From a virus (Duplodnaviria; Heunggongvirae; Uroviricota; Caudoviricetes), in the IMG/VR virus record IMGVR_UViG_3300010163_000008, positions 64,001 through 116,952 of that record: a stretch of DNA of 52,952 nucleotides. The stretch is one strand, 5' to 3'. A model generated the notes under the pieces. That model ran no database searches. It was not told the DNA's origin and saw only the letters and a program-made list of their open reading frames with translations. The stretch's first letter is position 1, and each line of letters opens with the position of its first letter. The position numbers and the translations under genes were made by a program. This document shows positions 1 to 50,904 of the stretch, one piece after another.

Positions 1-3000
1 GCATTAAGAATACTCCCTACATTAATACCTTTGAATCTTTCTTGTAATGCTTCTTCAAATGCCTTTGCCGCTCCATCCGTATTGAATGTAACCTTATTGC
101 CATCAACAGTAATAGCATTGCTACCGAAATCATCATTAACACTTTCTGCTACACTTGTAACGACATCAACATTAAGTTTATTGCCTTCAAACAAAGATTC
201 AACTTGAGTTTGTACATTTTCAACAAGTTCATATCCATTTCTAAGTTCCATATCAGTACAAGTAGCGTTAAGAGTTGGTAAAGTTAATTCGATACCCGAA
301 GTGCCTAAGTGAGAATTAATTTCTTCTACAGCCTTATTTACAGCCTCGATTATACGTCCTCTTTCACTATCAGTAAACTCTACACGTCCAGCACCAATAG
401 GGATGTCTATTTTACTCATATCAATGTCTGATAGTGATTCTTTTAAAGTTGACCAAGTATCACTAGCGGTGTTTTTCAAGTCTCTAAATGCTTGCTGTAA
501 TTTGTTAATCGGAGGGTCAAGGTCAATTTCGAGATACTTCTGTGCATCTTGTAATAAAGCTGAGAATTGATTATCATTGAGCTTAGGTAACTGTTCTACT
601 CCTGTTCGATATTGATTGAATGCGTCCATCAATTCTCTTTCAGTCATGTTGGAGACTTTCATTATTTTTTTATCAAAGTTGTCAACATATTTTTCGTTAT
701 TTTGTAGTGACTTAACTAAATCTCCCGCGAATTTACTTATGTTCATTTGTTGGTCATTAATATTTTGTACAGTACCTACAATACATTCTTCTGACACATT
801 GTACAAATCTTCGATACCAGCTTTATAATTACTTAAACTCGCTTCCCAATTAGCGTCATTGACAATTCCCAGACCTTCAAGGGCTTTAGCATGAGAAGTT
901 CTATCTACAATACCATTTTCTGCTTCTGAATCGAGATATTTTATCATATCTGCAATTCCGGTCATTTCAGTAGTATAATCAGCTTCAACAGCCTTTTTAA
1001 ATTCGTCATACGCCGCTGTACAATCTTCTACAATGCCATTAAATTCTTTGAACTTATCACTAATAAATTCAATCTGTGTATTTGAATCCATAGTAGATAA
1101 TAGAGTTACAAATTCATCTGCACTATCGCCCAAATTATCTAATATAAATTGAAGTTCTTCTACAGTATCAGCGTCCAATGAACGTAAATATTCGCCCATA
1201 TCTTCAAATTCAGAATTGACAGGCGTAATATCTTCTCCGAGTTTTTCAATAGTACTTTGTAATGTTTCTACAGGAGATATAATATTTTCGACAGCCTCAG
1301 CATTGCGTTCCATTTTATCCCCAAATGTTACAATGCCATCACCAGCCATTGATTCATCAAACAAGGCTACTCTATTCATAGCGTCGTCTATTTGGTCAGC
1401 GAACCGTGTATTATCCCTATCTAAACTATCATAATTACTATGTAGTTTTTCGTGCATTTCCAATAACAAAGATTCACTTTCAGCTTGTTCTTCAATGGCA
1501 GTATTCATTTCTTTTTCTGCCGCTTCTCGTTCTGCAATAGTACTGTTACCATCTTCGCATACTTCTAGGTAATGTTCTTGTGCCTGTATTGCTTCGTCAA
1601 CAGCTCTATTATGTGCATCAATAATGATATTATATCCGTTTAATGCTCTCTCAAAACCAGTATCTCCTTCTATAGAAGTCTGGTCTAATGACACATATCC
1701 CTGTGCAGAGGATTCTATTTCTGCAACCGTTCTATCAAATTCCTCATTCGCTCCTTGAGATAACTTCATTCGTTCAATTTCCATTTTGCGTTCTTCGAGA
1801 GCAATTTTCTTTTCTAATATTGCATTTTGTCTTTCTAATTCAGCAGATTCTTGTGCTAGCTCAGGTGTCCAATTTGAAGTCCCTTTTAGTGTATTAAGTT
1901 CTTCAAGTCTTTGTTTATTCTCGTCTAGTGTTTGGTTATATCCATCAATAGCCGCTTGCGTTTCATCTATTCCATCTTTAGCAGCGTCTATGTATTCCTG
2001 TAGTCCTTCATCTGTCATGTGCTCTACACTACTATTATGCCATGCGTCTATCGCTTTTGAAACGCCCCATATAACCGCCCCTATAGTAGCTATGATAGCT
2101 ATATATGGAGCTAAAGTAGCTAACGCCGCACCTAATGTAGTTACACCGCCTGCGGCGGCAGTAGATGCAGTCCCAACTCCAAAGATACCACGAGATAATG
2201 CCCCAAGTATACTACCGCCATTTCTAAACGCATTTATACCATTAGCTATACTAATTAACCCTTTACTTAGTCCAGCTAATTTTATAGCCGCAAAATGTGT
2301 TAGAGCTAAACCTAAAGCAGTAAGTAACATAGTGCCAACAGGGAGTTTATTAATTAATATATCAAGCACAGAAACAAGTCCTGTGATAGCACTAATAAAT
2401 CCACTAGCAACACCAGACACATTTAGATTAACTAAAAATTCTGACCATGTTGTTTTTAACTGATTCATTTTAGCTTCAAATGAATCCATATATGCTTCGT
2501 ATTTTTGGGCTGTAGAACCAGCGCTATTTACTGCCACTTCCATGGCTTCGCCAACTTCATTCCAGTTTTCAAATATGGACATGAGGGTATTACGTTGATA
2601 AGTACCACCTAAAGCAGTAGCGATAGCGCTTTTATCTATGTCGGTAAGGTTGTCCCACATTTCACCAACATCTTGAAGAATTTGCATTGGTTCGCGCCAT
2701 TCAGTAGCACTAGTACGTAAAGTGACTCCTAAATGATTCAGTACCTTTTCAGTATCGTTCAATGCTTCGTTATTATCGTCAAGATACTTACCTACCTTTA
2801 TATTCTGTAGGCGTGAAAGCAATGATTTAATACCGTTACCAATAGTTTCTGCACTCAAACGAGTGTTACTTGAAACTACAGTAATAACAGAAGCTAGTTC
2901 TTGAAAATCCATTCCTGCCGTTTTAGCAACAGAAGAAACACGTTGCATAGCAGTTGCTAGTTCTTCTGCGCTGGTAGCATATTTAAGGTCAAGCTGATTT

Positions 3001-6000
3001 AAAGTATCTATAACCATAGTGGCTTGTGATGCTTCCATATTAAAACCATTAAGAATACTAGTCAAACTCTCTGTTGCTTGAGCGGCTTCCATGTTACCAA
3101 CAGTAGACAACATCGTAGATGCTCTTAGCAGTTCCTCGGTTTGTGCTTCACTAAAACCTTGTCTTAACCACTCTTCACTACCTTCCATGACTGATTGTAG
3201 AGTAACACCTAATTCTTTAGCCATGTTAGAATAATTATGAACCATATTAGTAATAGAGGTATTAGATTTTTCAGTGACTATTTGCAAACTAGTCATAGCT
3301 GAATCTAATTCTTTGACTGTAGTAATAGAACCATAAATAGCCCTTTGTAGATTCATAAAGATTAAATAGCTACTAGCCATTCGTACAAATTTACCTGCTA
3401 AATTTTCTACATAACCATTTAATGTTCTAACTCCACCACCAGCACCACTCGCCGCCGCTTTAGTCCTAGACAATTCATTATTGTATTTACTCGTCGCATC
3501 TGCGGCGCGTTGCATAGCTTGCGCTGATTCACCAACTGTCTTTCCTGTTGAGTCTCCTTGAAGTTTAACCTTGTTTAGTTGCTCATATTCTTGCGTTAAT
3601 CGTTGTACATCTCTTTCTAATTGTTGAATAGTGTTATTAGAATCCCCATTTAATTGCGCCCTAGTTAATTCAAGCTTCTTTCTATGTAACTCTTCAAGTT
3701 TATTAATAGCTGAATCTATAGCTTGTTGATTAAAAGTATCATCACGTTTAGCGCTCATTGATTTTTCCGTTGTTTGCAATTCTTTTAATTTTGCAATAAG
3801 TTTGTCAACGTCTGTAACAGTCATATTCAAAGATTTAGCTAAATCACTCGTATTCAGTTTAGTTAAATCCCCTACTGTAAACATTTGCTTTACTTTATCA
3901 TATGATACACCAAATTGACTTAATTTTTGCGTTAATTGTTCAAGTTGTTGACCATAGACACCGAGTTGATTGCCAGTCTCAGTCTTTGTTCCTTTAGCTC
4001 TTAATGCTTCAATTTTAGCTTGTAACTGCTCTACTTGTTTAATCTGAGCTTCATATCCTTTTAATGTAGCATTACTTTGTGCATCAGTCTGTTTAGCATT
4101 GATAAGACTCATTTCTTTATTAAAATCGCCTTGTATTTGTTTTAATCTCTGTACATCTTTGATTGTAGACGCTACACCACTTGCATAGTTTTTAAGCGCA
4201 GTAACCTGTGTTTGTATTTCATTAGCATATGTAGTATTACCGGAATTTTGAGCACGATATAACTCTTTGGTCTTTGCTATAATTTGATTATATGTTTCAA
4301 TTAACGTTTGAGCATTATAAGTTTGCCTTGCGTCTATTTGTTTATTATTACCTTCTGTCATCGCCTTATTTATGTCTTGTACAGCATTACGTATTGCGTC
4401 AGCGCCTTCTTTGGTTTGAGTAACGACATTCGTACTTATCAAAGGTTTAGTAAAGGTATTAGTGGTTTTATCATATGTTGTTGCGGCTTGCCCTAGAGAG
4501 GTAAGTATGGTCTGTATCTCTCCTTGTAAACGAGCAACTTCATCCCCAGTACCCATCTTAAATCTAAGTTGTCCAATACGGTCTTGTAGTTTAAACAACT
4601 CCTGATACTTATTGATAACACCGTCTATATTTTTTAAATCAGTTGCAATATCATTTTGTTTACCAACTAAACTCATTTTATCTTTAAAACTAGCTTGTAA
4701 TGTTTGCAATTCAGTCAAAGCAGTTTTTCTTGCTTCTATATTTTTGACTAAGGTGTCAGTCTCGGAATTAAGAGCATTAATCTCTGCTTGTATACCGCTT
4801 GCCGTAGATGTATTATTGTTTAACTTAGCCGCATTTAATTCTTGTGTCTTTTGAATAATTTTATCATATAATGTTGCTAATTGATTTAGTTCACTGTTAT
4901 CTTTAAATGCCGCTGTTTGAGCATTAGCTACGTCTTTTATAGATTGAGAGTATTTAGTGTTATTCTGTATAGCCTCATTGGTTTTCATCGCAACCTTTTC
5001 TAAGGCTTCTGCTTGTGCTAGATATTCTGTAGCCGAATCTTCATGCCCCATCTTTCTAGCGTTATTATATTCTTGATACTTCTTAGTAGCTTGGTCTAAT
5101 TGAGAATTGAGCTTCTCTAAATCTTTCATGCCTGCAATATCGTTAGTCTTTGCAGACTGTTTATCTATTACATTCTGTAACTCTGTAAACTTATTTTTAA
5201 CTTTATCAATTTGTTCAGTAGTTTGCATTATACCTTCTGGACGAGCAGTATACATTGTGAATGAGTTCATATCTTTCTGATACTCAATTACAGTCTCACC
5301 CATCTTTTGGTTAATAGCATCACAACTTTGTACAATCTGGTCTTTTAACAGAGCAATCTGTTGTTCGTTTCCACCTTTTAATTGTAGATTACTAACTTCT
5401 TGATATGCTTTCTTTATTTTGTCTACCTGTTCTGTAATTTGTTTTGCTAATGCCATATCATTACTTTTTGTAGCAGCATCACCAAACTTAGCTGATACGG
5501 TAGCCATCTTTTGATTATAATCGGCAACAGCTTTCCCTAATTCATTATAACCTTGTAAGTTCTTTTCTAATCTTGCTCTTTCTGTTTCTAACTGAGTTAC
5601 ACGGTCAAGTGCCACTTGCTGAGATTGCCCATCGCTTTTGCTTGTTGCAGTATATAGTTCAGTATAAGCCTGAGTTAGTTGTTTAAAAACGCTTTGCAAT
5701 TCTTGTAGTTGTTGTTTGTTGTTGGTAATAGTAGCGTCCATACCTTCAAATAATAATAATCTATTACCAGTACCATCAGTAGTTCCTTTAAAGTTAAACG
5801 CGGCTTTTACACCATTAACCATAGTTTCTACTTTAGCTTTAACTGCGCCAGTCGCATTATCTATCCTCGTAGAAAAGCTAGTAATGTACTTAGTTAAGTC
5901 TTCACCCTTAAGAGTAACACCCAACTTTTTATACTGTTGTTCCATTTCAGTAAACAACTCTGACTTTTGTTTACCAGAAAAGTTACTAAATGCTTTGGCG

Positions 6001-43834: not shown

Positions 43835-44889
43835 ATGGATAGTCAAGGTTTACATTACGCAAAGAATAATAAATATGACGAATTTTATACGCAATACAGT
43901 GATATAAAAGCTGAATTATCGCATTATGTTGAGCATTTCAAAGATAAGGTTATTTATTGCAACTGTGATAATCCAGCAAAGTCTCAGTTCTGGAAGTTTT
44001 TTGTAGATATGTTTGAACCATATGGTATTAAAAAACTCATGGCTACATATTATCAACCAGATGGTGAAAGTTACTTATATGAATATTCCGGAAAATCTAC
44101 AACCAGAATACCATTGTTAGGTAATGGAGACTTTAGGTCAGAAGAATGTATTGAAGTATTAAAGCAAGCTGATATTGTTGTTACTAATCCCCCTTTTAGC
44201 TTATTTCGTCAGTATACAATCCAGCTTATGGAATATGATAAGAAGTTTATTATTGTAGGTAGTATTAATGCTATTACATATAAAGATTTCTTCTCTTTAC
44301 TCAAAGGCAATAAGGTTTGGATAGGCTTTACATTCAATCAATCTCTTGATTTTATTATGCCGGATTCATGTGAATTAAAAGGTTCAGCATATGTAGATAA
44401 AGACGGTTGTAAATATGGTTCTGTAGGTGGAATATGTTTTTATACAAACTTAGATATTGATAAACATAATGAGTTTCTCCCAGCTACTGGAAAGACTTAT
44501 TATGGAAATGAATCTCAATATCCTATGTATGATAACTATGGCGCTATCAATATTGATAAAGTTGTAGATATACCAGATGATTACTATGGAGTTATGGGTG
44601 TACCTGTCACATTCTTAGGAAAGTATTGTCCAGAGCAATTTGAGATATTAGGTACGACAACTGGTAGAGATGAGTTTGATGAATTAGCATATCCAACTAA
44701 ACGTTATGATAATCCTTGGCAACATAACAAAGACGGAACAGTAATCGGGGGGGTAAAATAAATACCACGGCAACAATTTTATTAAAAGATATACCATCTG
44801 ATAAAGTTTATTATACAGCAGATAATGCAGATGGTATATTAAGGAGTGTGTACAGACGTATTTTAATACGGAGGAAAAGGAGTAAATAA
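43835..44889 (+). pseudogene. EcoRI-family adenine DNA methyltransferase, frameshifted at a G7 tract (44747-44753)
   Basis: YDEFYT, YCNCD.P, DIVVTNPPFSLF and YDNYGAINID motifs. The ORF stops at 44761; the other frame continues GKINTTATILL...YYTADN...YRRILIRRK to 44889. Confidence 0.8.
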
Positions 44890-45710: not shown

Positions 45711-46310
45711 ATGTTTAACGATGGAATTATGCCTGACTGGGAGTTTGAAAAACTTTGTCAACAGTTCCATCCTCACTACATAGGTTACTATGGGATGGAC
45801 AAGGACTTATGGAAGAAATTTCATGAGCTGTTTGGAGAGGGAAGTGCAACAAAAAAGAGCAACACTAAATCAAAGACTGAACAACCATCTACATCAAAAA
45901 GTGCTAAACCTGTAAAGCCTCAAGTTAATCATGAAGAGGATGAGGATAAGCGAGAAATGCCGGAGGACTTTTTAAAAACCCTATGGAGTGTTCTTACAGG
46001 TATGGAAGACGATGTTCCTAAAGGTAAACATGAAAAGTCTGAGCTACCTAAAATGTCGCCTGAGTTGAAGGAATATATGGATAAGAAAAGTAAAGTAAAT
46101 CTGACAGATAAAACTAAATCAACATCTACAAAAGGAGAGAAAAATATGCACACAATTACTATTACACTGACGAACGGTAAAACATCAACATGGACAAGTG
46201 ACCACTACGATAATTACAAATTGGTGGATGGATGTTTTGTAATTATGATGAATGGCGCTTATGTTGGCATCTACAATATGAGGTATATTACTTCAATCGT
46301 TGTAAGGTAA
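45711..46310 (+). CDS. Hypothetical protein with an internal start at 46146 (54-aa C-terminal module)
   Basis: RBS AAGGAGG at the start; second RBS AAAGGAG before ATG 46146. Confidence 0.55.
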   Translation: MFNDGIMPDWEFEKLCQQFHPHYIGYYGMDKDLWKKFHELFGEGSATKKSNTKSKTEQPSTSKSAKPVKPQVNHEEDEDKREMPEDFLKTLWSVLTGMEDDVPKGKHEKSELPKMSPELKEYMDKKSKVNLTDKTKSTSTKGEKNMHTITITLTNGKTSTWTSDHYDNYKLVDGCFVIMMNGAYVGIYNMRYITSIVVR

Positions 46311-46346: not shown

Positions 46347-46511
46347 ATGGAGCACATTGTCATCAAATTCGCGGACGGGACTTCTGACACATATAACACA
46401 GAGGATTGGGATAATTACGAGATAGTTGACTTTTTCTTCTGTGTCAAGAAGGACGGACATAATGTAGGCATTTTCAATATGCGGCATATTAAATCAATCA
46501 CTATGAAATAA
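46347..46511 (+). CDS. 54-aa paralog of the preceding C-terminal module
   Basis: MEHIVIKFADGTSDTYNTEDWDNYEIVDFFFCVKKDGHNVGIFNMRHIKSITMK; RBS AAAGGA. Confidence 0.65.
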   Translation: MEHIVIKFADGTSDTYNTEDWDNYEIVDFFFCVKKDGHNVGIFNMRHIKSITMK

Positions 46512-46530
46512 TATACAAAGGAGAATAAGA

Positions 46531-46581
46531 ATGCAATATAAATCCTATCAACACGTAGAGCGTTGGGGAAATGAGAATTAG
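46531..46581 (+). pseudogene. Truncated RNA ligase 5' end (MQYKSYQHVERWGNEN*), probable omegaRNA guide source
   Basis: RBS AAGGAG; 14/16 aa identical to the N-terminus of the ligase at 48083. Confidence 0.8.
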
Positions 46582-46800
46582 CTGTCTTATAATATTTATA
46601 TTATAAACCATTTGGTTTTAGCTAATTAGACTAAGTGTATTTTATACTACGTTATGCAAGAATGATATAGTTATCAACAGATATACTACCTAGTCTGTTG
46701 CTCTAAGGATAGCAATTAAATAATTCTGAAAGACAGGAATAGTGTTGCTATTAAAAACCTTGCAATAACATTGTCTAAGGTAGAACTACTCTAACATACA
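46576..46800 (+). ncRNA. IscB omegaRNA scaffold (approximate limits)
   Basis: AATTAGCT/AGCTAATT first stem, then conserved-looking blocks AGACTAAG..CTACGTTAT..CCTAGTCTGTTGCTCTAAGG..AAACCTTG..TAACATTGTCTAAGG directly upstream of iscB. Confidence 0.7.
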
Positions 46801-46815
46801 AGGGGTCATATAGGC

Positions 46816-48051
46816 ATGGTGTATGTATTAAACATTAATAGCAGTCCTTTAATGCCATGTACAGAGGCTAAAGCTAAGAAGTTATTGCGTAATCATAAAG
46901 CACAAATAGTAAAATATGAACCTTTTACTATTCAACTCTTGTTTGAATGTGAAAATAAGATTCAAGATGTTGTGCTTGGTGTAGACGCAGGGAGTAAACA
47001 CATTGGATTGTCAGCAACAACAGCGACAAAGGAGTTATATGCGGCTGATATTGAGTTAAGAAATGATATTGTTGATTTATTATCTACGCGGAAAGAGCTT
47101 AGAGTGTCAAGACGGCGTAGGTTACGGTATCGTAAGGTTAGATTTAATAATCGCACTCACTCTAAGCATAAAGGATGGCTACCACCATCTGTTAGGCACA
47201 AAATTGACTGCCATTTAAAAGTCGTTGAAGAAGTGTATGGAATCTTACCTATATCACGTATCATTGTTGAAACTGCGTCTTTTGATATACAAAAGATAAA
47301 GAATCCAAATATACAAAGAAAAGAATATCAAGAAGGGGAACAGTCTGGATTCTGGAATGTAAGAGAATATGTATTGTTTAGAGACAATCACACTTGTCAA
47401 CACTGTCATGGGAAATCTAAAGATGATGTATTGAATGTTCATCATATTGAAAGTAGAAAGATAGGGGGTGACGCACCAAATAATCTAATTACATTATGTC
47501 GAACGTGTCATGAGGCATATCACCGTGGCAACATCGAATTGAATTTTAAGCGTGGTAAGTCCTATAAGGACGCTACCTTTATGGGAATTATGAGATGGGC
47601 ATTTTATGAAAAACTTAAAGCGTTATATTTGAATGTGTCCATGACTTATGGATATATTACTAAGAGTATTAGGATTCAATATAATTTGCCTAAAGAGCAT
47701 TATATAGATGCTCGATGTATATCAGGAAATCCACAAGCTCAACCTTTAGGTTATTACTACTATCAGAAAAAAGTACGTTGTCATAATAGACAGATATATA
47801 AAATGAAAATACTTAAAGGAAATAAACGAAAACGAAATCAAGCTGACTACACTGTTAAAGGATTTAGGTTATTCGACAAGGTTAAATATAAAGGTATTAA
47901 GTGTTTTATATTTGCTCGTAGAGTTAGCGGGTATTTTGATATTAGACAATTAGATGGTACTAAAATAAGTGCTAACGCTAACTATAAAAAACTACAACTA
48001 TTACAGATGCGTACAGGGTATCTAACAGAACAACGGACGCAAATTGGATAA
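46816..48051 (+). CDS. iscB: IscB RNA-guided nuclease (PLMP, RuvC, bridge helix, HNH)
   Basis: PLMP; GVDAGSK (RuvC-I); RRRRLRYR; LPPS; IVE (RuvC-II); CQHC..VHHI....GG..PNNLITLC..CH (HNH); HYIDA (RuvC-III). Confidence 0.95.
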   Translation: MVYVLNINSSPLMPCTEAKAKKLLRNHKAQIVKYEPFTIQLLFECENKIQDVVLGVDAGSKHIGLSATTATKELYAADIELRNDIVDLLSTRKELRVSRRRRLRYRKVRFNNRTHSKHKGWLPPSVRHKIDCHLKVVEEVYGILPISRIIVETASFDIQKIKNPNIQRKEYQEGEQSGFWNVREYVLFRDNHTCQHCHGKSKDDVLNVHHIESRKIGGDAPNNLITLCRTCHEAYHRGNIELNFKRGKSYKDATFMGIMRWAFYEKLKALYLNVSMTYGYITKSIRIQYNLPKEHYIDARCISGNPQAQPLGYYYYQKKVRCHNRQIYKMKILKGNKRKRNQADYTVKGFRLFDKVKYKGIKCFIFARRVSGYFDIRQLDGTKISANANYKKLQLLQMRTGYLTEQRTQIG

Positions 48052-48082
48052 TGACTATATCTATATAAAGGAGTTATATAAA

Positions 48083-48991
48083 GTGCAATATAAAAGCTAT
48101 CAACATATTGAGAGGCTTGGAAATGAGAACGTGGAAGGTATTGAATGTGGGAAGTGCATGATATTCCCTAAGATTGACGGCACTAATGGTACGGTGTTCT
48201 TAGGGGACGATGGGCAAGTTCATGCTGGTTCTCGTAGACGTGAATTAACGCTTGATAAAGACAACGCAAACTTTTATGACTATGTTCTACAGCAAGATAA
48301 TCTCAAGGCGTTCTTTAAGGAGCATCCTAATCTTAGGTTGTATGGTGAGTGGCTAGTTCCACACACACTAAGAACATATCGTAAGTCAGCATGGAATAAG
48401 TTTTACGTATTTGATGTTGCAGTAGACGATGAGCATTTTTCTGATGGGTTAATGTACTTATCTTATGAGCAATATCAACCTAAACTAGAGAAGTATGGGA
48501 TTGAATATATTCCCCCTCTTGCGGTTATAACTAATCCTACTTATGAGAACCTAATCAAGTGTATGCAGAAGAATGACTATCTCATCGAGGATGGTCAAGG
48601 TGTAGGTGAAGGTATCGTCATCAAGAATTACGCTTACTGCAATAAGTATGGCAGGACTACATGGGCTAAGATAGTAGCTTCTGAATTTAAGGAGAAGCAC
48701 GTTAAGACTATGGGTGCTCCTGTGATTAATGGCGATATGATTGAGGAACGTATCGTGCTTGACTTCTGTACTTCTGCTTTTGTAGAGAAGGAGTACGCTA
48801 AGATTGTTGAAGTGTGTGGCGGGTGGAAGTCTCAATACATACCTCGTCTACTCAATACAGTTTATCACGAGCTTGTCACAGAAGAGATGTGGAGCATTGT
48901 ACGCAAGTATAAGAATCCAACTATCAATTTTAAAACACTCTACTGCCTTATTGTAGATAAGATAAAGAGTGTAAAGCCTATGCTATTCTAA
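48083..48991 (+). CDS. ATP-dependent RNA ligase (Rnl2-like nucleotidyltransferase)
   Basis: Motifs I KIDGTN, III YGEW, IIIa FDV, IV EGIVIK and V WAKIV; GTG start at 48083 with RBS AAGGAG (the track start at 48044 overlaps iscB). Confidence 0.85.
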   Translation: MQYKSYQHIERLGNENVEGIECGKCMIFPKIDGTNGTVFLGDDGQVHAGSRRRELTLDKDNANFYDYVLQQDNLKAFFKEHPNLRLYGEWLVPHTLRTYRKSAWNKFYVFDVAVDDEHFSDGLMYLSYEQYQPKLEKYGIEYIPPLAVITNPTYENLIKCMQKNDYLIEDGQGVGEGIVIKNYAYCNKYGRTTWAKIVASEFKEKHVKTMGAPVINGDMIEERIVLDFCTSAFVEKEYAKIVEVCGGWKSQYIPRLLNTVYHELVTEEMWSIVRKYKNPTINFKTLYCLIVDKIKSVKPMLF

Positions 48992-49971: not shown

Positions 49972-50904
49972 ATGACAAAACAACCAACAATATATATGCT
50001 AGTAGGACTGCCTGGGGCTGGGAAAACTGAATATGCCCATAGAGAAATGAAGGATTGCGATATCTTTTCATCAGACGAACTTAGGGAAGAATTGTTTGGT
50101 GACAGGCGCGACCAAGACCATAATAAAGAGTTGTTTGAGGAACTTCATAAGCGTATCTACAAGAATCTACAAGAAGGACATGATACGGTATATGACGCTA
50201 CTAACATCAACTACAAACGGCGTATACAGTTTATAAAGAATATTCCTTGCGAGTGTGAAAAGAGGTGTATCGTGTTTGCACCTAATATCTCGACCATACT
50301 TTTACGGAATGGACAGAGAGAACACAAAGTGCCACCAGAAGTAATCCAGCATATGTACACATCATTCTATATTCCTTGGTTCTATGAAGGTTGGGATGCG
50401 ATAGCATTGTGTCAAGAAGCCATTCCTGATAAACCATATAGCATTCGTGATATATTCTTTAACCCATCCGGTTTAATCTACTATGACCAGCATAATTCTC
50501 ACCATACTCTTTCGTTAGGCGACCATATGTTAATGGCTCATCAGAATGCTCTTAAGTATTTCCCTCAACTTAAAGACAGTGATTCTTCTGGGTATAAGGC
50601 TATTGAAGAAGCTATCCTCCTTCATGACATAGGCAAAGTGAAGACACAAGTGTTCCACGATACAAAGGGTAATCCCACATCGGAGGCTCATTATTATGGG
50701 CATCATTTGGTTGGTGCTTATGATAGTCTACAAGTAGAGAGTAAATCTGACGACCGTCTTTATAGGGCTGTACTTATTCAATGGCATATGCAACCTTACT
50801 TTCTCAAGAGTGAGAAATCACAAAAAAAATATCGTAAGCTCTGGGGTGATAGTCTATACGATACCATAATGGCTATATATGAGCTTGACAAATCTGCTCA
50901 CTAA
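49972..50904 (+). CDS. Polynucleotide kinase (AAA_33-like P-loop) fused to an HD-domain phosphohydrolase
   Basis: VGLPGAGKT, SSDELR, VYDATN...RR; C-terminal HSHHTL..GDH, LLHDIGK and HMQPY. Confidence 0.85.
   Translation: MTKQPTIYMLVGLPGAGKTEYAHREMKDCDIFSSDELREELFGDRRDQDHNKELFEELHKRIYKNLQEGHDTVYDATNINYKRRIQFIKNIPCECEKRCIVFAPNISTILLRNGQREHKVPPEVIQHMYTSFYIPWFYEGWDAIALCQEAIPDKPYSIRDIFFNPSGLIYYDQHNSHHTLSLGDHMLMAHQNALKYFPQLKDSDSSGYKAIEEAILLHDIGKVKTQVFHDTKGNPTSEAHYYGHHLVGAYDSLQVESKSDDRLYRAVLIQWHMQPYFLKSEKSQKKYRKLWGDSLYDTIMAIYELDKSAH

What the first reader, a model, noticed from the sequence alone, without database searches (positions are those of the whole stretch)
46531..48130. IscB cassette inserted in the RNA ligase gene, which is restored by a recoded duplicate N-terminus
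Seen: upstream of the omegaRNA is an RBS plus ATG CAA TAT AAA TCC TAT CAA CAC GTA GAG CGT TGG GGA AAT GAG AAT TAG. Downstream of iscB is a new RBS plus GTG CAA TAT AAA AGC TAT CAA CAT ATT GAG AGG CTT GGA AAT GAG AAC, continuing into the full ligase. The copies have 14/16 identical residues but 12/48 nt differences, several synonymous (TCC/AGC, CGT/AGG, CAC/CAT). Known: IscB guides are the sequence 5' of the omegaRNA scaffold. So the guide is the old ligase 5' end (~46560-46575, GCGTTGGGGAAATGAG), and the resident functional copy mismatches it at 5 of 16 positions. No tnpA and no IS200/605 end hairpin after iscB were seen. Inference: an RNA-guided homing endonuclease that cuts the ligase gene of cassette-free competitor phages and carries its own cleavage-resistant gene start. 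It solves gene disruption at the DNA level, where the TnpB intron solves it by splicing.
Basis: partly seen in the sequence, partly recalled or inferred. Interest (0 to 1): 0.88.

Follow-up and report, generated by a model that had tools for sequence, protein, structure and literature searches.

The report
Phage IscB homing cassette with spare gene start
A phage carries a Cas9-ancestor nuclease (IscB) and its guide RNA inside its own RNA ligase gene. The guide spells the intact gene start found in cassette-free relatives, and a differently spelled spare gene start keeps the phage's own ligase whole and mismatched to the guide, much like engineered "home-and-rescue" gene drives.

Summary

**What is in the window**
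- A 1.55-kb block sits after codon 16 of an RNA ligase gene. It holds an omegaRNA scaffold (Rfam HEARO, above threshold), an intact 411-aa iscB, and a diverged second copy of the ligase RBS plus first 16 codons.
- The complete genome has no TnpA.
- No end hairpin follows iscB, although close IscB relatives have one.

**Empty allele and self-protection**
- Two cassette-free relatives (L096, L097) have an uninterrupted ligase that starts with the upstream copy.
- The 16-nt guide (46561-46576) matches them 16/16 and is followed by ATGTGG.
- The resident copy mismatches the guide at positions 11-14 and 16 and reads ACGTGG.
- It differs from the empty allele at 31% of bases, against 16% for the rest of the gene.
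- It contains Ser and Arg codon-family switches that occur nowhere else in the gene.

**A second case**
- A sister cassette (IscB 73-74% identical) sits after codon 9 of a DNA ligase in five other phage contigs.
- That cassette, including its AT-rich recoded gene start, is 97-99.9% identical across the contigs, while the flanks are 84-95% identical.
- The guide varies with the recipient lineage.

Cleavage, TAM and homing are inferred, not shown. This scan had already noted phage IscB guides matching empty sites, and a tnpB "recoded rescue" on a plasmid.

The parts
46512..46530 (+). Native ligase RBS block, the start of the upstream copy of the duplication
   Evidence: Aligns to 48062-48082 and to the RBS region of the empty alleles L096 and L097.
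46531..46581 (+). Stranded native ligase start: ATG plus 16 codons. The TAG stop is supplied by the first bases of the omegaRNA scaffold.
   Evidence: The peptide is identical to residues 1-16 of the cassette-free ligase P0001. 45/48 nt identical to L096.
46561..46576 (+). Predicted 16-nt guide of the omegaRNA (CGTTGGGGAAATGAGA). The boundary is uncertain by up to 2 nt.
   Evidence: Lies immediately 5' of Rfam HEARO model position 1 at 46577. 16/16 match in the empty alleles L096 and L097. It is the only site in the phage's own genome within 3 mismatches.
46577..46815 (+). omegaRNA scaffold (HEARO), running up to the iscB start
   Evidence: RF02033, 46577-46789, 84.7 bits, full model 1-211. 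The P1 stem ATTAGCT/AGCTAAT is read.
46816..48051 (+). iscB, 411 aa, intact
   Evidence: Pfam RRXRR plus HNH. Matches OgeuIscB-type chains in the PDB at up to E 1.5e-44. The aligned RuvC-I Asp (GVDAG), RuvC-II Glu (IVETASF), HNH His pair (VHHIE) and RuvC-III HYIDA are all conserved.
48062..48082 (+). Second, diverged copy of the ligase RBS block. Only 10 nt separate it from the iscB stop, so there is no room for a transposon end.
48083..48130 (+). Recoded first 16 codons of the working ligase (GTG start)
   Evidence: 15/48 nt differ from the empty allele, against 134/858 in the rest of the gene (Fisher p 0.008). There are 4 codons with multi-base changes, against 12 in the other 286 codons (p 0.007). 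Ser TCY to AGC and Arg CGT to AGG family switches occur here; none occur in the other 286 codons.
48113..48134 (+). Resident counterpart of the target plus adjacent motif: AGGCTTGGAAATGAGA followed by ACGTGG
   Evidence: Mismatches to the guide at positions 11, 12, 13, 14 and 16 counted from the motif. The second base of the motif is T in the empty allele and C here.
48083..48991 (+). Complete RNA ligase ORF, 302 aa, restored by the spare start
   Evidence: PF09414, 2.5e-18. 92% aa identity over full length to P0001.

Best explanation
This is a TnpA-independent IscB-omegaRNA homing cassette.

**Proposed mechanism**
- The ligase promoter, or read-through from upstream, transcribes the stranded native gene start and the scaffold. 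This gives an omegaRNA whose guide is ligase codons 11-16.
- In a cell co-infected by a related phage with an uninterrupted ligase, IscB cuts that gene next to ATGTGG.
- The break is repaired from the cassette-bearing genome, which copies the scaffold, iscB and the spare gene start into the rival. If repair fails, the rival is destroyed.
- The carrier is safe. Its upstream copy is followed by the scaffold instead of the motif. Its working copy is respelled across the distal third of the target and in the motif.
- The spare RBS and 16 codons keep the ligase functional, so insertion inside a gene carries no cost.
- The respelling also removes the homology that would let a break be repaired without copying the cassette.

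**Shown:** the anatomy, the empty allele, the exact guide match, the mismatches in the resident copy, the loss of transposon features, and the mobility signature of the sister cassette.

**Inferred:** expression, guide end, TAM, cleavage, immunity and conversion.
For: - HEARO above the Rfam threshold, directly upstream of an intact iscB with conserved catalytic motifs.
- Empty alleles L096 and L097 carry the guide sequence 16/16, inside a ligase that starts with the upstream copy. The junctions are exact, at 46578 and 48067.
- The resident copy is unusually diverged exactly there. Window 48092-48121 shows 17/30 identity, while the next 120 nt show 110/120.
- OgeuIscB is blocked by mismatches at positions 1-14 (PMC9640706). 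OrufIscB needs at least 13 matched nt (PMC13180657). The resident copy offers only 10 contiguous matches.
- No other site in the genome lies within 3 mismatches of the guide.
- No TnpA, no end hairpin, single copy. The relatives L214 and L215 keep the hairpin.
- Independent second case: L205, L209, L211, L212 and L213 carry a 1510-bp cassette after codon 9 of a DNA ligase. The upstream copy MTNYRALAP equals the N-terminus of the cassette-free P0241 (loci L207, L208). The recoded MINYRKLNP is essentially invariant across the five. The cassette is 97.2-99.9% identical where the flanks are 83.7-95% identical. The guide follows the recipient lineage.
- Both targets are followed by ATG (ATGTGG and ATGAAG).
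Against: - Only one cassette-bearing genome with this RNA-ligase insertion was found, so its own mobility signature cannot be measured.
- The known empty allele belongs to a fairly distant relative (flanks 68-84% nt identity) that may not share a host.
- The TAM is unknown.
- The 10 bases of the resident copy nearest the motif still match the guide. Protection is extrapolated from IscBs that are only distantly related to this one.
- The diverged copy could come from recombination with another ligase lineage without selection for immunity.
Confidence: 0.72

Rival explanations
1. Stranded relic. An old IS200/IS605-type iscB element lost its transposase end. The ligase was later repaired by recombination with a diverged ligase allele. 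The guide match to other phages is a passive by-product, and the element no longer moves or cuts.
For: Only one carrier genome was found. Close IscB relatives are ordinary hairpin-ended elements. The amino-acid changes in the spare start (V to I, W to L) are residues common in other ligase lineages, as expected from a borrowed allele.
Against: The iscB ORF, its catalytic motifs and the omegaRNA are intact. The sister cassette of the same architecture is clearly mobile as a unit that includes its recoded start. The divergence is concentrated on the target.
Confidence: 0.15
2. Weapon without homing. The cassette serves the phage as an RNA-guided nuclease that destroys co-infecting relatives (exclusion), with little or no copying of itself.
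For: The known empty allele is in a relative whose left flank is only about 70% identical, which may be too diverged for efficient repair. A published review notes that homing endonucleases can kill competitors that are too divergent for conversion (PMC13565253).
Against: The 60-120 nt on each side of the site are 92-97% identical, which is enough for phage recombination. The sister cassette has spread between lineages with sharp junctions.
Confidence: 0.08
3. Host-directed nuclease. The guide is kept because it also matches a host gene, so IscB damages the host chromosome during infection.
For: The guide plus ATG (19 nt) occurs exactly in an ABC-exporter motif (NLRWGNENA) in 12 Clostridia species genomes.
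Against: About 4 chance hits are expected in that collection. The excess is explained by a conserved protein motif combined with low-GC codon usage. The guide's origin is fully explained by the ligase start. The host of this phage is unknown.
Confidence: 0.03

Closest known systems
IscB-omegaRNA elements of IS200/IS605 (GstIscB in ISGst elements; Meers et al., bioRxiv 10.1101/2023.03.14.532601; OgeuIscB structures 7XHT and 7UTN)
   Same: The same protein family and the same HEARO-type omegaRNA upstream of the gene. The guide is the DNA just outside the scaffold. The nuclease cuts the uninterrupted site and repair re-copies the element.
   Different: There is no TnpA anywhere in the genome, no end hairpin, and only one copy. 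The target is the orthologous site in other phage genomes rather than the donor joint left by excision. The far end of the element is a respelled gene start instead of a transposon end.
IStrons: TnpB plus a group I intron (PMC10690162; review PMC13565253)
   Same: An OMEGA nuclease element sits inside a gene and carries a device that cancels the damage of insertion.
   Different: There the damage is undone at the RNA level by splicing. Here it is undone at the DNA level by a duplicated, respelled RBS and first codons. No intron is involved.
Free-standing phage homing endonucleases and intronless homing (T4 SegF and similar; summarised in PMC13565253)
   Same: A phage-borne nuclease cuts a conserved gene of co-infecting relatives. 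Self is told from non-self by sequence substitutions in the resident allele.
   Different: Recognition is by a 16-nt RNA guide, which is reset to the recipient's own sequence at each transfer. The resistant allele segment is physically part of the cassette.
Engineered home-and-rescue (HomeR) Cas9 gene drives (PMC7968924)
   Same: A nuclease and guide are inserted into a needed gene and target its wild-type sequence. They carry a recoded, cleavage-resistant rescue of the interrupted part.
   Different: This one is natural, sits in a virus of bacteria, uses IscB rather than Cas9, and rescues the 5' end with only 16 (or 9) codons.
Integrating elements that bring a substitute gene end (phage 21 and e14 in icd; elements in tRNA genes). 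This comparison rests on my own knowledge.
   Same: Insertion inside a gene is made harmless by a diverged duplicate of the displaced gene end.
   Different: Those elements use site-specific recombinases and replace 3' ends. This cassette has no recombinase (the only ORF is iscB) and replaces the 5' end.

Membership tests
IscB-omegaRNA (OMEGA) nuclease | Protein with an RRXRR/PLMP N-terminus and a RuvC fold split by an HNH insert | tested here: met
   Pfam PF14239 1.7e-58 and PF01844 1.3e-08. PDB IscB chains up to E 1.5e-44.
IscB-omegaRNA (OMEGA) nuclease | Catalytic residues of RuvC and HNH are present | tested here: met
   The alignment to the OgeuIscB-type chain conserves the GVDAG Asp, IVETASF Glu, VHHIE His pair and HYIDA.
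IscB-omegaRNA (OMEGA) nuclease | HEARO-type omegaRNA directly upstream on the same strand | tested here: met
   RF02033, 46577-46789, 84.7 bits against a gathering score of 83.
IscB-omegaRNA (OMEGA) nuclease | RNA-guided, TAM-dependent DNA cleavage | not testable with these tools
   Needs biochemistry. There is only a candidate motif, ATG, shared by two empty sites.
IS200/IS605 (ISC) transposon | Y1 TnpA in the element or the genome | tested here: not met
   PF01797 is absent from the complete genome, while the controls were positive.
IS200/IS605 (ISC) transposon | Subterminal hairpin at the end distal to the omegaRNA | tested here: not met
   Fold z -0.12 for 48046-48100. The relatives L214 and L215 give z -3.8 and -2.7.
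IS200/IS605 (ISC) transposon | Several copies at unrelated sites | tested here: not met
   One HEARO in the genome. The nearest other IscB is 74% identical.
Homing genetic element | Natural empty allele that contains the recognition site | tested here: met
   L096 and L097: guide 16/16 followed by ATGTGG.
Homing genetic element | Resident allele lacks a cleavable site | tested here: inconclusive
   There are 5 mismatches at positions 11-14 and 16, a changed motif base, and no other near-match in the genome. That this blocks cleavage is extrapolated from other IscBs.
Homing genetic element | Element more conserved than its flanks across lineages | tested here: inconclusive
   Cannot be measured for this cassette because only one carrier is known. 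It is met for the sister DNA-ligase cassette: 97-99.9% against 84-95%.
Homing genetic element | Biased inheritance in mixed infection | not testable with these tools
   Needs experiment.
Recombinase-driven integrating element with a substitute gene end | Site-specific recombinase encoded in the element | tested here: not met
   The only ORF between the two copies is iscB.

The most novel reading that the evidence does not exclude
A clade of phage IscB elements has turned from transposon passengers into natural 'home-and-rescue' gene drives. The transposon end is replaced by a portable, respelled gene start. This lets the cassette live inside needed genes, where break-induced resistance alleles would be non-functional. 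The guide is automatically rewritten to each new recipient's allele at every homing event.
Probability: 0.55. Interest if true: 0.9.

Novelty: new variant of a known kind. Interest (0 to 1): 0.8.

Why it matters
Introns, inteins and IStrons undo the damage of insertion into a gene at the RNA or protein level. This cassette would show a third natural route, which undoes it at the DNA level with a spare, cleavage-resistant gene start. That design was reached independently by engineers of Cas9 rescue drives.

It also gives concrete, testable material for how OMEGA nucleases persist and spread without a transposase:
- two cassette families;
- natural filled and empty alleles;
- candidate TAMs.

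A 2026 review still calls such spread between phages theoretical (PMC13565253). The cassette also yields compact 411-412-aa IscBs whose natural targets are known.

Tried and rejected
- **No near relatives by DNA search.** Megablast of the locus against GenBank phages found nothing. An exact 20-mer scan of IMG/VR found nothing. IMG/VR ligase relatives are at most 58% identical, too far for nucleotide comparison.
- **Metagenome scan.** The 18-mer guide scan gave 82 hits. None is a ligase; most are an unrelated ABC-exporter gene.
- **Rejected: the upstream copy was imported and the downstream copy is native.** The empty alleles match the upstream copy.
- **Rejected: AT-rich upstream/downstream similarity in the L023/L043 group as a second recoded duplication**. 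The upstream part lies inside the scaffold's first stem. The empty site shows a 128-nt replacement instead.
- **Peptide-level screen.** Across 43 unique iscB contexts, only this window and the DNA-ligase group show a duplicated gene start.
- **No natural donor found.** No ligase lineage starting with the recoded peptides appeared among the best 120 homologues of either ligase.
Full report
**Setting.** The window is bases 64001-116952 of a complete 116,952-bp IMG/VR virus record with terminal repeats. Earlier notes of this scan describe this genome as rich in inteins and group I introns.

**Anatomy.**
- After a 54-aa ORF comes an RBS, then ATG at 46531, then 16 codons (MQYKSYQHVERWGNEN) and a TAG.
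- The TAG is formed by the first bases of an omegaRNA scaffold.
- Rfam places a full-length HEARO at 46577-46789, at 84.7 bits against a gathering score of 83.
- iscB (46816-48051, 411 aa) has RRXRR and HNH domains.
- iscB aligns to solved IscB structures with the RuvC Asp, Glu and His/Asp and the HNH His pair conserved.
- Ten bases after its stop, a second copy of the RBS block begins (48062). It is followed by GTG at 48083 and a complete 302-aa RNA ligase (PF09414).
- The duplicated block is 46512-46577 against 48062-48129, with 52 identities over 68 columns. The coding part shows 14/16 identical residues and 12/48 base differences.
- The same comparison on other iscB contexts gives nothing comparable.

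**The decisive test: the empty allele.**
- A search of 5.8 billion proteins found one close ligase, P0001, at 92% identity. The next best is 63%.
- P0001 starts with exactly the upstream peptide followed by VEGIECGK.
- It lies on two metagenome contigs, L096 and L097. There the ligase directly follows the 54-aa ORF homologue, with no iscB.
- At the nucleotide level the empty allele carries the 16 bases that precede the scaffold (46561-46576) without a mismatch, followed by ATGTGGAAGG.
- BLAST homology to L096 stops at 46578 on the left and resumes at 48067 on the right. About 63 bases of the empty allele therefore align twice.
- The upstream copy differs from the empty allele at 3/48 bases, and the downstream copy at 15/48. 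The rest of the gene differs at 134/858 (Fisher p 0.008).
- The downstream copy has four codons with multi-base changes (p 0.007). It has both a Ser TCY-to-AGC switch and an Arg CGT-to-AGG switch; none occurs in the other 286 codons.
- In 30-nt windows, 48092-48121 has the lowest identity of the gene (17/30). The next 120 nt are 110/120, and the upstream copy at 46546-46575 is 29/30.

**Self versus non-self.**
- Counted from the motif side, the resident copy mismatches the guide at positions 11, 12, 13, 14 and 16. Its adjacent bases read ACGTGG where the empty allele has ATGTGG.
- For OgeuIscB, mismatches at positions 1-14 abolish cutting (PMC9640706).
- OrufIscB needs at least 13 matched bases (PMC13180657).
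- Shifting the guide boundary by up to 2 nt still leaves five mismatches, one of which then lies next to the motif.
- The upstream copy is followed by the scaffold, not by the motif.
- No other site in the whole phage genome lies within three mismatches of the guide.
- That the carrier is immune is therefore a reasoned inference, not a measurement.

**Not a classical transposon.**
- The genome has no Y1 TnpA and a single HEARO.
- The 55 nt around the iscB stop fold no better than shuffled sequence (z -0.12).
- The 73-74% identical relatives L214 and L215 carry a conserved hairpin ending in a GTTTCCTTGC-like motif (z -3.8 and -2.7).
- The cassette is thus a derived form in which the transposon end has been replaced by a gene start.

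**A second, independent case.**
- I sampled the closest IscB relatives (73-74% identity) and found locus L205. There iscB is followed after 4 nt by a DNA ligase (PF01068). The scaffold is preceded by an RBS, ATG and nine codons, MTNYRALAP.
- The downstream ligase starts MINYRKLNP and then continues MKYW.
- The cassette-free homologue P0241 (96% identity, a cluster of 291 sequences; loci L207, L208) starts MTNYRALAPMKYW.
- Four more samples carry the same insertion: L209, L211, L212 and L213.
- Across the five, the 1510-bp cassette is 97.2-99.9% identical. The 1-kb flanks are 83.7-95% identical, apart from one identical pair. The boundaries are sharp.
- The recoded nine codons are invariant apart from one third-base change. 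They are 22% GC against 59% for the native spelling, close to the cassette's 33%.
- The upstream copy, and hence the guide, varies with the recipient lineage. Empty alleles of both spellings exist.
- This is the signature expected of homing in which the spare gene start travels with the nuclease and the guide is inherited from the recipient.
- The motif next to that target is ATGAAG, sharing ATG with the window's ATGTGG. This is only a weak hint at the TAM.

**Wider context.**
- In another IMG/VR group (L043 type, IscB 62% identical), the guide again matches an empty site 16/16. It is followed by CGATAA.
- In that group the cassette replaces 128 nt up to the next gene's ATG with its own 3' module.
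- In L206 the cassette clips the 3' end of the upstream gene.
- Gene-start duplication is therefore recurrent but not the rule. It was seen in 2 of the distinct contexts examined.

**Mechanism proposed.** The mechanism is as given under Best explanation. Four steps are inferred: transcription through the stranded gene start, maturation of a roughly 16-nt guide, cleavage beside ATGTGG, and recombinational repair from the carrier. Respelling would do two jobs. It protects the carrier, and it leaves the broken left end homologous only to the upstream copy, so repair must copy the cassette. Placing the target in the conserved start of the ligase limits resistance by mutation. Other evidence fits this: a P-loop kinase gene (AAA_33) with an HD-like motif lies 1 kb downstream, which suggests an RNA-repair pair. 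This reading is an inference.

**Known or new.**
- IscB-guided re-copying of IS elements is published, and so is a TnpB gene drive in plasmids (PMC11870625).
- A 2026 review treats spread between phages as theoretical and does not describe a respelled rescue.
- Searches for IscB with phage, homing, HEARO or gene drive found no such description in the open-access library.
- The nearest design analogue is the engineered HomeR drive (PMC7968924).
- Notes of this scan had already reported phage IscB guides matching empty sites, and one tnpB with a 'recoded rescue' on a plasmid. I did not re-test those.

**Limits.**
- There is one carrier genome for the RNA-ligase cassette, and the tools may hide near-identical records.
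- The empty allele is in a moderately distant relative.
- There are no expression, cleavage or TAM data.

Noticed in passing
L205:2761-4270 (also L209, L211, L212 and L213 at 1761-3270): Sister IscB cassette of 1510 bp after codon 9 of a phage DNA ligase. It carries an invariant AT-rich recoded start (MINYRKLNP). The cassette is 97-99.9% identical between phages whose flanks are 84-95% identical. Empty alleles are in L207, L208 and L217.
   Followed up: yes
L192-L204 (genome-contig hits); guide at window 46561-46576: The guide plus ATG (19 nt) occurs exactly in an ABC-exporter gene, at the motif NLRWGNENA, in 12 Clostridia species and in many human-gut metagenome contigs. This is probably a coincidence of a shared RWGNEN peptide and low-GC codons, but it is a possible host off-target.
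   Followed up: partly
L043:3699-5323 against L184 (empty site): A cassette with IscB 62% identical to this one lies next to a tRNA gene. Its guide, GTAGGTCGGTAATTAA, matches the empty site 16/16. The insertion replaces 128 nt of intergenic DNA up to the next gene's ATG with its own hairpin and AT-rich leader.
   Followed up: partly
L206:2700-3000: An IscB cassette is inserted near the 3' end of the upstream gene. The scaffold supplies the last five codons (QLPHT) and the stop, so that gene ends in a foreign tail.
   Followed up: no
window 45711-46310 and 46347-46511: The C-terminal ~50 residues of the 199-aa ORF resemble the whole adjacent 54-aa ORF (shared DNY..VD....G..VGI.NMR.I.SI). This looks like a tandem duplication of a small domain just upstream of the ligase. 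The same gene pair is present in L096.
   Followed up: no
window 49972-50904: A 310-aa protein with an N-terminal AAA_33 P-loop kinase domain and an HD-like motif (LLHDIGK, HYYGHH) lies 1 kb downstream of the RNA ligase. It may be a polynucleotide kinase-phosphatase partner in an RNA-repair module.
   Followed up: partly
window 43835-44761: EcoRI-type adenine DNA methyltransferase (PF13651, E 1.5e-106) with no obvious adjacent endonuclease. It is probably an anti-restriction orphan methylase.
   Followed up: no
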